The notes beneath the pieces are model-generated. The model searched no databases. It had not been told where the DNA came from and saw only the letters and a list, made by a program, of their open reading frames with translations. The position numbers were made by a program, and so were the translations under genes. From Chrysochromulina tobinii (taxonomy: Eukaryota), in assembly GCA_001275005.1 (NCBI GenBank), contig JWZX01003055.1:1-38052 (forward strand): a DNA stretch of 38,052 nucleotides, in the 5' to 3' direction. Each line of letters starts with the position of its first letter. Within the stretch, counting starts at the first letter, position 1. This document shows, in pieces, positions 6,526 through 36,174 of this stretch.

Positions 6526-9423
6526 TCACAGCTGGCCGCTTTGCAGCATGCCCTTGCTGCGCAGCTCGGCCATGCCCTCGCGTGCCGCCTGGCTGATGCC
6601 CAGCATGCGGCCGTCGCCTGCGCTCCGCAACATGGTCGAGTACATGTGCATCGTGAGCCACATCGGCCGAGAGGCCGCGAGCGCCTCCGAGGCGACCGGT
6701 GCCACGTGGCAGCTCGCCTGGCGTGAGAGCGTGAGCAGCAAGGCGCCGTCGTGGGCATGTAGGTCGCGCTGCACGCCGTGCGATTCCACACGGACGTTGA
6801 CGGGCTGCGCGCCTGGCCGAGGCTCGCCCAACATGAGCGTGCAGTCGACTTCGCATCCGACGTCGGGCCAGCCCGCATTCGGTGGACCCACAGGACGCAG
6901 ACCGCCGCTGCCGAGGTCACGCAGGCGTGCCCCCCGTGGGGTCGAAAGCCGTAGCTCTGAGATGGCCTCGAGGGCCGCGGCAATGCCCCGCAGCCCGCGC
7001 AGCGCCGCACAGAGCGCCGGTGACGTGGCCGAGGCGATGGTGTGCGAGGCGCCGTATAGGTGTGAAGGCAGCGGCGCGCCGATGGGCTCGGGTACGGGCG
7101 TGCGCGGCGTGCCTTCGGGGCATAGGAGCCAGCACGAGCGCTCGTGCGTTTGAATCGTCGAGTCGGGAAGCAACGCCCCCGCCGCGACGACCGCCCGCGC
7201 CTCCGCTGCTGCTTGCGCCACGAGCGACGGCGGGAAGGCGTCGGGGATCAGCACGGAACCTCGAAGGAGGAGCTCGGACACATGCGAATCGCGGAGCACC
7301 GCTGTCGCTGCGGGCACGGTCCAATAGGCGGCCAAATCGAACATTAGACGTGGCAGCGGCAGCAGCTGCAGCGTCGCGCGCGCCGCCCGAGGCAGCAGTG
7401 CCTCGAAGACATGAGCATACCATCGGGCGAGGTGCGCATCGCCGTCGCGCTGCGGCTGCCCGTCGCCTTGGCCGCCGCTGCCGCTGCGCTGCCCGCCGCT
7501 GCCGGCACAGCCGCCGCCGTCGCCGCCGATGCCGCCGCCGTCGCCGCCGATGCTGACGTCGTCGCAGTCGTCGTCGGCGTCGCCGCCGCCATTGATTGAG
7601 GGAAGGCGCACAGGTGTGGGCAGGTTCACGGCACCCAGCCTCTCAACGAGTGCGCGGGCGCCGGTGGCCGATCGTGCCATGGCGATAGCCTCCGACGCCA
7701 TCGCGTGCGTGAGGCGCGTCGCCTCGACCAGTGCTTGCTCAGCCAACAGCCCCATCGTCCGGTCGTCTGCCACGGCAGCGAGTGCAGCGGCGCGCACTTG
7801 TCTCACCGTGGACTCGACCGCCGCGGCCGCCGACGCGTCGAGCCACGCCCAAGACGACGCTTCGCGCCGCAAGGAAGGGTTGGCGTCGTCGTGGGCGCGA
7901 GCCTCGCGCTCGAGTGGGGCTGCGGAACTCGGCACATCGGCTCGTTCCACAGTCCGTGGAAGGAACTCGCGCCGCGCGAGTTCAATGAGCTCTGGCACGC
8001 CCAGCCGGACGCACACGCCGGCCTCGAGCTGCCGCTGCTTCTCGCGCTCGTCCACGATCATCATGGAGCGGCGGTAGAAGGCATGCGCCTCTTCGCGCCG
8101 CGCGGCGAGCGCAAGGGCATTCGCACGCTGCTCGAGCCCGCTGCCGCCGCCGCGGAACCTGTGGTTGGGCGACGCGTAGCCGAGTTGGGCCCAGCGCTTC
8201 CGCCAAAAGGTCTCAAACGAGCAGACCGCGAAGTGGAGCAGCACGGCGCCGCCCGCCTCCTCGTAGCGCATCAGCTGATGGTACACATAGTGTGAGTGGC
8301 GCAGCTGCCGGTTGTTCGTCATGGCCGCCGTGGCCGCCACGTGCTTCGAAGGCAAGTTCCACTCGTGCACTGAGCCTGCTTCCCGGATCGCCTCGTGCAC
8401 GCGCACAATCGACTTGCCGTTGGCGTAGAAGCGGAAGAGTTCGCCACCCGCCTCGGGCGCCTCGCTCCAGTAGCGCATCGCCGCTGCTACGGCAGGATGG
8501 TGCTCATCCAACTGCCCCGGATGCTGCTTGAACAGACTCACCTGATGAGGGAGGCAATCAGCATGCAATCAGCGACCTCCACCAATCGATGACATCTCCG
8601 ATGCTGCATGAACAGGCTCACCTGATGAGGGAGGCAATCAGCATGCAATCAGCGAGATGACATCTCCGATGCTGCTTGAACAGGCGCACCGCCCGGTATG
8701 GGTCGACACACTCAAGCGCTGATGAGGGAGGCAATCAGCATGCAATCGATGTACCGCCCGGTATGGGTCGACACACTCAAGCGCCTCAGGCACCGCCTCG
8801 AGGTTGCGGTAGGTGAAGAGGATGGCGCCGAGTCGCTCGAGCTCGGCCAGGTGCCGCTGCAGCGCGCCACCGCCAGTGCCCCCCGCGCCGCTCATCCCGC
8901 TCTCCGTCCCAGGAAGGTGGAGAAGCTCGTCCGAGTCGACGTGCAGCAACCACTCGTCGCCTTGCTCGCGACAGCGCGCGATCGCATGCTCGCAATTGAG
9001 CATCTGCCGAGCTTGCACCTCGGTCGCCGCGTACAAGCGCAGCCGCGACCACGACGGCAGCCCCTCCCACTCACACTCGAAGGCAGCATCGCGCACCCGA
9101 ACCGTGACACGATCGGTAGGGTAGCGGCGTGCGACACCGACGCTCGCGTCGTTGGGGTCGTCAAGGTACAAGTAGAGCCGCGAAAATCCCACGTGCAGGT
9201 AGTAGCAAATGAACGAGTCCAGCGAAGAGCCATTGAACGCCATCGTGCAGACTACAGCCGCGCGGCGAGGGCCTGGCGCGGCCTCTGGTGGATTTGCAGT
9301 GATGAGCAGTGGAACTGATGCGTGCTCAGCCGCTACAGCAGCCTTGCTAGTCGGGCCTCGTCGATGTCGCCACTCGCATCGGCAGCAGCTCGGGCGGCGA
9401 GAGGCCGAGCAGCAAAAGGACAT
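6526..9423 (-). CDS. GT-A fold glycosyltransferase (Glyco_tranf_2_4/GT92-like) with a degenerate 2OG-Fe(II) oxygenase-like C-terminal region; exons 9423-8755 and 8541-6526, about 894 aa
   Basis: Motifs LDSFICYYLHVGFSRLYLYLDDP, RQMLNCEHA, WLLHVDSDELL (DxD), NLEAVPE..VDPYRA|VSLFKQ, NGKSIVRV and VLLHFAVC. A phase-0 GT...AG intron at 8754-8542 joins the two ORFs seamlessly. The start at ATG 9423 is uncertain. Confidence 0.8.
8542..8747 (-). repeat. Three identical 29-nt repeats (plus strand ctgatgagggaggcaatcagcatgcaatc) at 8542-8570, 8622-8650 and 8719-8747, separated by 51- and 68-nt spacers containing exon copies
   Basis: Direct sequence comparison. Confidence 0.95.
8542..8754 (-). other. 213-nt spliceosomal intron (GTACAT...CTCATCAG) with introner-like internal repeat structure
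   Basis: Removal gives continuous DPYRA|VSLFKQ. The intron contains in-frame stops and three identical 29-mers, each with CTGAT branch-like, pyrimidine-tract and CAG elements. Confidence 0.85.
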
Positions 9424-35069: not shown

Positions 35070-35191
35070 AGAGGGCGAGCCACATCGACGATCGCGGACA
35101 CCGGTGCGCTTGTCACGGCGCTCATCGTGGCGAGCCACCTGTACCGTGTGGCGAGGTGTGAGAGTCGAGTGCGGATTGTATCGCTCGGTGA

Positions 35192-35340
35192 AAACGGCGT
35201 GTCGTGTTCGCGCTCATAATATTCGTGCACGAAAAACATTAGCAAGCCGTACCGTGCATGTACATTTAGTACACTTGTGACTTGAAGACAGAATACGATC
35301 GTGGTGCCGGGTTCTCGGTCTGAGTCAACATACATACTGG
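35192..35340. repeat. 149-bp exact direct repeat, copy 1
   Basis: Identical to 36026-36174 (offset 834) by base-by-base reading. Confidence 0.95.
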
Positions 35341-35883: not shown

Positions 35884-36025
35884 GCAAAATGCTTGCGAGT
35901 GCGCCCACGAAAGACCTGCGAGACCGGAAGGTCGCAGCTCAGAGTAAACGTTTGGTTTGTTTCCTTTTTTATCGACTAACAACACGGCCGCACTGGAATT
36001 TGGTCACATACTAGCTAGCAGCTGT

Positions 36026-36174
36026 AAACGGCGTGTCGTGTTCGCGCTCATAATATTCGTGCACGAAAAACATTAGCAAGCCGTACCGTGCATGTACATT
36101 TAGTACACTTGTGACTTGAAGACAGAATACGATCGTGGTGCCGGGTTCTCGGTCTGAGTCAACATACATACTGG
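36026..36174. repeat. 149-bp exact direct repeat, copy 2 (in the probable 3' UTR/terminator of the IQ gene)
   Basis: Identical to 35192-35340; lies 86-234 nt downstream of the TAA at 36260. Confidence 0.95.

What the first reader, a model, noticed from the sequence alone, without database searches (positions are those of the whole stretch)
8520..8784. Intron built as a repeat-spacer array that stores copies of its host exons, including the intron-less exon-exon junction
Seen in the sequence, in gene sense: exon1..CCATACCGGGCG | GTACATC-[29-mer gattgcatgctgattgcctccctcatcag] - a perfect copy of the end of exon 1 (8690-8719 = 8755-8784, 30/30) fused directly to a copy of the start of exon 2 (8668-8689, 20/22 vs 8520-8541) - ggagatgtcatc linker - [29-mer] - a second exon-2-start copy (8600-8621, 20/22) - linker with a copy of the intron's own 5' end (gtcatcgattg) - [29-mer] | exon 2. 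The intron therefore contains the spliced or 'empty' insertion site. The minimal unit 8719-8754 is a complete 36-nt GT-AG intron. Established: introners are intron-generating elements in several algae. Inference: this is a snapshot of an intron-gain mechanism in which a short splice-acceptor cassette is inserted with iterative template switching or rolling-circle-like copying of the target site (or of spliced cDNA), unlike a simple transposon with a short TSD.
Basis: partly seen in the sequence, partly recalled or inferred. Interest (0 to 1): 0.85.

Follow-up and report, generated by a model that had tools for sequence, protein, structure and literature searches.

The report
Intron-making cassette with long target duplications
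This 213-base intron in an algal gene is a three-unit stack from a large family of likely young introns, each a short splice-acceptor cassette placed behind a roughly 12-45-base copy of the next exon; the family likely spreads by target-primed copying of intron ends, and a published survey listed no intron-making element for this species' genome.

Summary
The repeats are as described, and an RNA contig removes the whole 213-nt intron (8542-8754, minus strand) from a glycosyltransferase-like gene of the haptophyte Chrysochromulina tobinii. The 29-mer is not local: a metagenome scan returned 129 loci. In 64 of 90 distinct sites the bases after the cassette's AG are copied upstream (controls 7/450, 0/61), mostly starting with GT, so the copy supplies the donor and the cassette the acceptor. 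Near-identical alleles without the insert exist at this gene and at a second one. The 'stored spliced junction' is not an mRNA copy. It is the old exon/intron boundary, duplicated by a later event that straddled the donor; 5 of 12 other non-GT sites show this (background 1.5-3%). A fixed AG end, a variable 5' end with 1-3 nt microhomology, long variable duplications and a second unrelated cassette fit target-primed copying of intron 3' ends best. DNA end-joining or Replitron-type copying remain open, and no enzyme was found. Published introners have 3-9 bp duplications; a 2025 survey lists zero families for this genome. This scan noted the family before at another locus (e1-2577349). Verdict: new introner variant.

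The parts
8755..9243 (-). Coding exon upstream of the intron (start codon uncertain); glycosyltransferase family 2-like domain PF13704
   Evidence: Pfam E 1.4e-11; 157/162 identical to intron-less relative P0002
8755..8784 (-). Exon-1 end (segment A), duplicated inside the intron
   Evidence: 30/30 with 8690-8719
8542..8754 (-). Whole intron, 213 nt, GT-AG, phase 0, with two in-frame stops if retained
   Evidence: RNA contig skips it; frame and stops
8719..8754 (-). Unit c0: present donor GT plus short cassette; likely the youngest unit, readable as a deleted copy of the local unit or a fresh cassette
   Evidence: its first 14-18 nt found in 0 of 129 loci
8690..8718 (-). Perfect copy of the exon-1 end (29 nt, 30 with the shared G of the AG); second copy of a duplication that straddles the old donor
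8668..8689 (-). B1: copy of the exon-2 start; inferred former 5' end of the intron
   Evidence: 20/22 to exon 2, continues into the intron linker
8622..8667 (-). Unit c1: linker plus cassette; equals unit c2 with a 12-nt deletion
   Evidence: alignment
8600..8621 (-). B2: second copy of the exon-2 start
   Evidence: 20/22 to exon 2 and 20/22 to B1
8542..8599 (-). Unit c2: linker plus cassette with the acceptor used; its last 48 nt (8542-8589) are identical to the end of a 67-nt intron in a ubiquitin-peptidase gene (L045)
8542..8570 (-). 29-mer acceptor cassette (also at 8622-8650 and 8719-8747): branch-site-like CTGAT (consensus recalled), short pyrimidine run, CAG
   Evidence: 129 loci in metagenomes; summed depth 33,000-40,000 versus about 48 in flanks
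6526..8541 (-). Coding exon downstream of the intron; its first 22 nt (8520-8541) are the target duplicated in B1 and B2
   Evidence: open frame; 629/671 identical to P0002

Best explanation
This intron is a member of a widespread family in which a short 3'-splice-site cassette sits behind a long copy of the next exon's start, and it likely grew in three steps by target-primed copying of an existing intron's 3' end, most likely from RNA. Inferred step 1: staggered nicks about 22 nt apart at a donor-like G|GT site; the nicked strand primes at the AG end of a family intron, copies back 30-60 nt, and rejoins through 1-3 nt of microhomology. Fill-in duplicates the target, so the copy's GT becomes the donor, the cassette's AG the acceptor, and splicing restores the mRNA exactly. 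Inferred step 2: the unit (target copy plus cassette) was duplicated in tandem, with a 12-nt deletion. Inferred step 3: a later event began 29 nt inside exon 1 and ended just past the donor, adding a third cassette and moving the old exon/intron boundary inside the intron, where it looks like a spliced junction. Shown: splicing of the whole intron, the family, the duplications, empty alleles, and the junction statistics. Not shown: the template (RNA or DNA), the enzyme, and the order of steps. I put the family-plus-later-duplication reading at about 0.85 and the RNA-templated route at about 0.5.
For: Fixed 3' end: 45 of 59 distinct copies of upstream sequence begin within -5..+3 nt of a cassette AG, 2 more are left-extended at an AG, 12 lie further off. 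Long variable duplication: 64/90 sites versus 7/450 and 0/61 controls; among 55 first-copy GT sites 47 are 12-44 nt long and 8 are 60-70 nt, probably tandem units. Variable 5' end with microhomology: mean 1.58 nt at the 19 of 40 sites where a prediction was possible, versus 0.52 and 0.39 in two controls, 0 of 2000 reaching it. Target bias: 93 GT and 7 GC after 123 terminal cassettes; purine at +3 in 84/90 versus 56% background; G at -1 in 41/55. Removal from GT to AG joins compatible frames in 14/16 testable sites. Unrelated genes share long cassette ends: 48 nt between the window and L045, 46 nt between L010 and L129. A second, unrelated acceptor cassette has the same footprint in 6/10 sites. 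Donor-straddling duplications: 5 of 12 other non-GT/GC sites versus 93/6239 and 267/9000 random positions. Empty alleles: 8 of 15 listed cluster members read through the window junction with no insert, the other 7 do not span it; at the L045 gene 24 filled versus 10 empty among 54 proteins.
Against: No reverse transcriptase, endonuclease or transposase was found: 0 of 48 neighbouring frames had such a Pfam hit, and the genome could not be searched. There is no poly(A) or simple-repeat tail at the fixed end. The shared 5' extension in L045 is not derived from that gene's exon, so no parent-to-daughter carry-over was shown. 26 of 90 sites lack a clear duplication, and a few of the 64 positives are matches between cassette or array units. 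Microhomology and patchwork units fit DNA end-joining equally well. The straddling count is small, and survival of such events is filtered by selection. The microhomology and frame sets each contain one locus counted twice (L027/L056). Empty alleles rest on protein calls, not on aligned DNA.
Confidence: 0.5

Rival explanations
1. Staggered double-strand breaks are repaired by microhomology-mediated, DNA-templated end-joining (polymerase-theta-like), which copies the cassette from another locus or from the local intron; repeated template switches give the patchwork units.
For: 1-3 nt microhomology; units c0 and c1 read as deleted versions of local unit c2; tandem subunits of 10-12 nt inside cassettes; Daphnia neointrons show staggered-break repeats and secondary hits (PMC4202315, passages).
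Against: It does not explain why copying starts at the AG in about 45 of 59 cases, why the same few cassettes are chosen, or the sense-strand donor-like target bias. Daphnia exon-intron repeats are 4-12 bp.
Confidence: 0.25
2. The cassette is a minimal non-autonomous element moved by a Replitron-type HUH nuclease, with one fixed end inserted next to a dinucleotide, one fuzzy end and variable target duplications.
For: Replitron-1 inserts in one orientation at a dinucleotide with variable duplications and fuzzy ends, and one Replitron protein is reported from C. tobinii (PMC10288648, passages and section 9 part 1). Read on the antisense strand, the family has the same asymmetry.
Against: The cassette is only about 30-60 nt, against alignable termini of about 53 bp at each end; no paired terminal repeat or special hairpin was seen (fold z 0.05; no inverted repeat in the intron); two unrelated cassettes share the footprint; carry-over of parental flank was not shown.
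Confidence: 0.12
3. One reading: one event copied the empty target or spliced cDNA repeatedly (rolling-circle-like), so the intron holds a true exon-exon junction.
For: The junction does read as the empty site at 50/52 positions; all three units are related; at L015 a 35-nt copy spans the junction and matches the exon form.
Against: The exon-1 copy is perfect but the adjoining exon-2 copy is not and runs into the intron linker; the inner junction differs from the mRNA in 4 of 4 informative loci; L016 and L087 differ by one unit at the same site, which suggests stepwise growth or assembly collapse.
Confidence: 0.08
4. Assembly artefact, or an ordinary local tandem duplication in an old intron.
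For: No read or contig spans the whole array.
Against: Most junctions are held by single-copy-depth contigs in two DNA runs, RNA skips exactly 213 nt, the cassette occurs at many unrelated genes, and near-identical alleles lack the intron.
Confidence: 0.05

Closest known systems
Introner-like elements of Symbiodinium and Polarella glacialis classes 4/5 and 6/8/10 (bioRxiv 10.1101/2020.10.14.339549, parts 1-2 of 4 read; PMC9860276 Fig. 2B passage)
   Same: [quoted passage not shown]
   Different: Their duplications are fixed at 4 or 8 nt and the Symbiodinium ones have terminal inverted repeats. Here duplications are mostly 12-44 nt and variable, the 5' end is not fixed, no inverted repeat was found, and up to half of the intron is exon-derived.
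Introners of marine Chrysochromulina MAGs (PMC9860276 Fig. 2C passage and supplement rows)
   Same: Same genus, no terminal inverted repeats, one splice site taken from the duplication.
   Different: The family shown there has 4-bp duplications, carries the 5' site and co-opts the 3' site, the opposite polarity. C. tobinii itself is listed with 0 families in PMC12130899 supplement file 7.
Non-LTR retrotransposition (target-primed reverse transcription; features recalled)
   Same: Fixed 3' end, truncated 5' end with short microhomology, long variable target duplication.
   Different: No tail, promoter or coding capacity; the fixed end is a spliceosomal AG; no autonomous partner identified.
Replitron-1/N1 of Chlamydomonas (PMC10288648)
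   Same: Orientation-specific insertion beside a dinucleotide, one variable end, variable duplications.
   Different: Replitrons are 0.9-3.6 kb with short terminal direct repeats and a hairpin; they are not reported as intron makers in the passages read.
Daphnia neointrons from staggered-break repair (PMC4202315) and the tandem-duplication model of intron gain (Rogers; recalled, cited in PMC9860276)
   Same: Exon-derived direct repeats at intron ends and secondary hits inside young introns.
   Different: Daphnia exon-intron repeats are 4-12 bp with no long shared cassette in the passages read; in the tandem model both splice sites come from the exon, whereas here the acceptor is imported.

Membership tests
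Introner (broad sense) | Similar sequence in introns of many unrelated genes | tested here: met
   129 loci; 19 of 48 neighbouring frames hit varied ordinary Pfam families
Introner (broad sense) | Insertion is spliced out and restores the coding sequence | tested here: met
   RNA contig at the window locus; frame-compatible in 14/16 testable sites, 11 of 27 set aside for cassette-like flanks
Introner (broad sense) | Recent gain: empty site in close relatives | tested here: met
   Read-through proteins without insert at two genes, on contigs up to 21 kb and 10 kb; protein-level only
MITE-type introner | Fixed short target duplication (3-9 bp) | tested here: not met
   Mostly 12-44 nt and variable
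MITE-type introner | Terminal inverted repeats and two fixed ends | tested here: not met
   No inverted repeat within the intron; 5' ends vary
Non-LTR retroposed element | Fixed 3' end, truncated 5' end with microhomology, variable long duplication | tested here: met
Non-LTR retroposed element | Poly(A) or simple-repeat tail at the priming end | tested here: not met
   The fixed end is CAG joined directly to the target
Non-LTR retroposed element | Autonomous reverse-transcriptase/endonuclease partner | tested here: inconclusive
   0 of 48 neighbouring frames; whole genome not held
Non-LTR retroposed element | RNA intermediate | not testable with these tools
   needs a tagged-intron or inhibitor experiment
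Replitron | Orientation-specific dinucleotide target with variable duplication | tested here: met
Replitron | Terminal direct repeats and end hairpin | tested here: not met
   None evident in inserts; fold no better than shuffles, z 0.05
Replitron | Fuzzy end copied from the parent's flank | tested here: inconclusive
   Two pairs of loci share long ends but the one tested is not exon-derived at L045
Replitron | HUH transposase with matching termini | not testable with these tools
   genome not held
Tandem-duplication intron (Rogers model) | Both splice sites come from duplicated exon sequence | tested here: not met
   Acceptor lies in a cassette shared across loci
Repeat-spacer memory array or structured RNA | Foreign spacers, known RNA family or stable structure | tested here: not met
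   Spacers are copies of adjacent flanks; three Rfam hits all far below gathering score; fold z 0.05

The most novel reading that the evidence does not exclude
Spliceosomal introns of this alga propagate without a dedicated transposon: the branch-site-to-AG end of excised intron RNA is reverse-transcribed at staggered nicks in donor-like exon sites, so any abundant intron end can seed a new, perfectly spliced intron and can re-hit its own locus. Two unrelated cassettes with one footprint would be the first family-scale case of intron self-retroposition with target duplication.
Probability: 0.3. Interest if true: 0.9.

Novelty: new variant of a known kind. Interest (0 to 1): 0.7.

Why it matters
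How new spliceosomal introns arise in bulk is attributed mainly to DNA-transposon-like introners with short fixed duplications. This family has a different footprint, in which much of each intron is a copy of its own exon. That would hide it from surveys based on end-to-end intron similarity (inference; the 2025 survey lists 0 families for this genome). It is polymorphic among close relatives and sits in a cultured alga with a 59-Mb genome (PMC4580454 passage), so the long-debated RNA route to intron gain becomes directly testable. It also matters for annotation: the public model of this gene uses internal splice sites that the RNA contig does not.

Tried and rejected
Viral contigs: 0 matches to the 29-mer. 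Whole-genome scan not possible, no genome held. Idea that the window's linker is the exon-derived part of the L045 intron: rejected, since empty alleles continue differently. Where the linker's upstream part comes from stays open; one search lists one 130-nt DNA contig that matches 46 nt across it with one difference and then goes on unlike, and its remainder was not seen. The linker, B and A segments occur in 0 of 129 loci. Structured or known RNA: rejected. A hammerhead-like reading of the antisense end (motif recalled) was dropped because the other core half is missing. The junction histogram was faulty (tandem arrays counted many times) and was replaced. No other family member lies in the window. 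Four lake-water runs held next to none of the locus's words, which is no evidence. Ten paper searches listed no description of this family; only listings were seen for most hits, the library lacks most subscription papers, two supplement files of PMC12130899 were not searched, the PMC9860276 supplement was cut when stored (two cassette motifs not found in it), and bioRxiv supplements were not seen.

Full report
Observation. On the minus strand, 8542-8754 interrupts a coding sequence in phase 0. The three 29-mers and the three exon copies are at the stated coordinates and identities. Exon 1 carries a glycosyltransferase-2-like domain, and a protein 100% identical to exon 1, on a contig of the window's length, is named by its source as a hypothetical protein of Chrysochromulina tobinii. 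One RNA contig joins the two exons across exactly 213 nt; the other RNA run laid gave no bridging piece. Short DNA contigs at single-copy depth hold most internal junctions, but none spans the whole array. The intron is a multiple of three but holds two in-frame stops; using the first internal acceptor and the old donor would keep 29 extra bases and shift the frame.

The cassette is a family. Summed depth over the 29-mer is 33,000-40,000 against about 48 in the flanks (the tool warns that this is no copy number). A scan of metagenome contigs with the last 25 nt returned 129 loci and estimated about 540 stretches in the collection. After removing duplicates and sites too close to contig ends, 90 terminal sites remained. 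In 64 the sequence after the AG has a copy upstream within 300 nt, against 7 of 450 swapped pairs and 0 of 61 downstream controls; 74 begin with GT and 5 with GC. A few of the 64 are matches between array units. With a shorter motif, 93 of 123 terminal cassettes are followed by GT and 7 by GC, and the following bases lean towards a donor-like pattern (purine at +3 in 84/90, G at +5 in 48/90; background 56% and 33%). G precedes the first copy in 41 of 55 sites. The copies differ from the exon at 74 of 1700 positions. Removing GT-to-AG joins compatible reading frames in 14 of 16 testable sites; 11 of 27 were set aside, and the two failures are one locus. Host frames include kinesin, myosin, ABC, Argonaute and oxidoreductase domains (19 of 48 with a Pfam hit) and no mobile-element domain.

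Recent gain. Eight of 15 listed members of the nearest protein cluster (representative 97% identical over exon 1) read straight through the junction with no insert, on contigs up to 21 kb; the other seven do not reach it. These calls appear unspliced, because other proteins of the same sources read into introns, but the DNA was not seen. A second gene shows both states: 24 proteins run into the cassette and stop, 10 continue as coding sequence (one of these is a curated model that may be spliced), and 20 of the 54 are uninformative.

What the 'spliced junction' is. A family intron starts with a copy of the next exon, so its donor boundary already reads like the empty site. The window's 32-nt repeat starts 30 nt inside exon 1 and ends two bases past the donor, with a cassette between the copies. 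Of 13 distinct non-GT/GC cassette ends with a flank repeat, 6 including the window straddle a donor in this way; 5 of the 12 others, against 1.5% and 3.0% of random positions; L051 is a further case by eye. In the window, L030, L046 and L050 the inner junction differs from the spliced mRNA on the exon-2 side; L015 is not informative on this point. In the window the exon-1 copy is perfect, the adjoining exon-2 copy is 20/22 and runs into the same linker as the next unit, and unit c1 is unit c2 minus 12 nt. I therefore read three layers: first insertion, tandem copy, then a donor-straddling event. The order is inferred from divergence only.

Mechanism. Copies of upstream sequence begin at the cassette's AG in 45 of 59 cases, 2 more are left-extended at an AG, and 12 lie 4-106 nt away. 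The other end of the insert varies, is built from 10-12-nt units around a branch-site-like word (consensus recalled), and overlaps the target copy by 1.58 nt on average where this could be scored (19 of 40 sites; controls 0.52 and 0.39). Unrelated genes share long ends: 48 nt for the window and L045, 46 nt for L010 and L129. A second cassette of different sequence, also ending in an acceptor, has the same flank repeat in 6 of 10 sites. About 40% of this genome is coding (PMC4580454 passage), so random insertion filtered by selection should leave mostly non-coding copies with random following bases; the 81% GT/GC share argues for targeting (inference). A fixed 3' end, a truncated 5' end with microhomology and a long variable duplication are the recalled marks of target-primed reverse transcription, and an excised intron ends at that AG. 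That is my best reading at about 0.5. DNA end-joining (0.25) and Replitron-type copying (0.12) are not excluded; no enzyme was identified, and the one parent-flank test was negative.

Comparison with what is known. Introners that carry the acceptor and take the donor from the target duplication are described in dinoflagellates, with fixed 4- or 8-nt duplications (bioRxiv 10.1101/2020.10.14.339549, parts 1-2 of 4; PMC9860276 passages, which give 3-9 bp as the range; review PMC11282704 part 2 of 5). The Chrysochromulina introner figured there has 4-bp duplications and the opposite polarity. The 2025 survey reports about 5% of classified introners as non-LTR derived (PMC12130899 passages) and lists C. 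tobinii with 0 families (supplement file 7); the 2022 survey lists this genome in its Supplementary Table 1 and introners in marine MAGs of the genus. Replitron-1 shares the asymmetric insertion pattern (PMC10288648). Daphnia neointrons show 4-12-bp exon repeats and secondary hits (PMC4202315 passages). The family passes the broad introner tests and fails the MITE-type ones.

Earlier findings. Note e1-2577349 describes a 66-base intron with a 15-base flank repeat from what appears to be the same family elsewhere in this genome. I did not examine its locus.

Verdict. Observation confirmed; interpretation partly supported. New variant of a known kind, interest 0.7; the bolder reading, intron ends that retropose themselves, has probability about 0.3.

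Noticed in passing
window 35189-35340 and 36023-36174: A 152-nt direct repeat at 99% identity brackets about 680 nt and is AT-richer than its surroundings; possibly a repeat-bounded element or a local duplication.
   Followed up: no
L014, L016, L022, L037, L046, L051, L058, L076: A second acceptor cassette of unrelated sequence has the same long GT-started flank repeat in 6 of 10 sites and also forms tandem units.
   Followed up: partly
L045:1959-2025: A 67-nt family intron in a ubiquitin-peptidase gene is present in some relatives and absent in others, and shares its last 48 nt with the window intron.
   Followed up: yes
window 8542-8754: The public gene model P0001 keeps part of the array as coding sequence through internal splice sites, whereas the RNA contig and the relatives' proteins indicate removal of the whole 213 nt.
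   Followed up: partly
L016 and L087: The same GC-donor site in an ABC-transporter gene has an extra middle unit in L016, which contains a jump back into the upstream exon about 10 nt after a cassette end.
   Followed up: partly
L025:2001-2421; L002:2001-2289: Long tandem runs of the unit target-copy-plus-cassette (seven units of 66 nt; six to seven of 44 nt); could be slippage or assembly effects.
   Followed up: no
L019 and L068: Cassettes occur on both strands close together, for example L019:2001-2269, which may mark antisense insertions.
   Followed up: no
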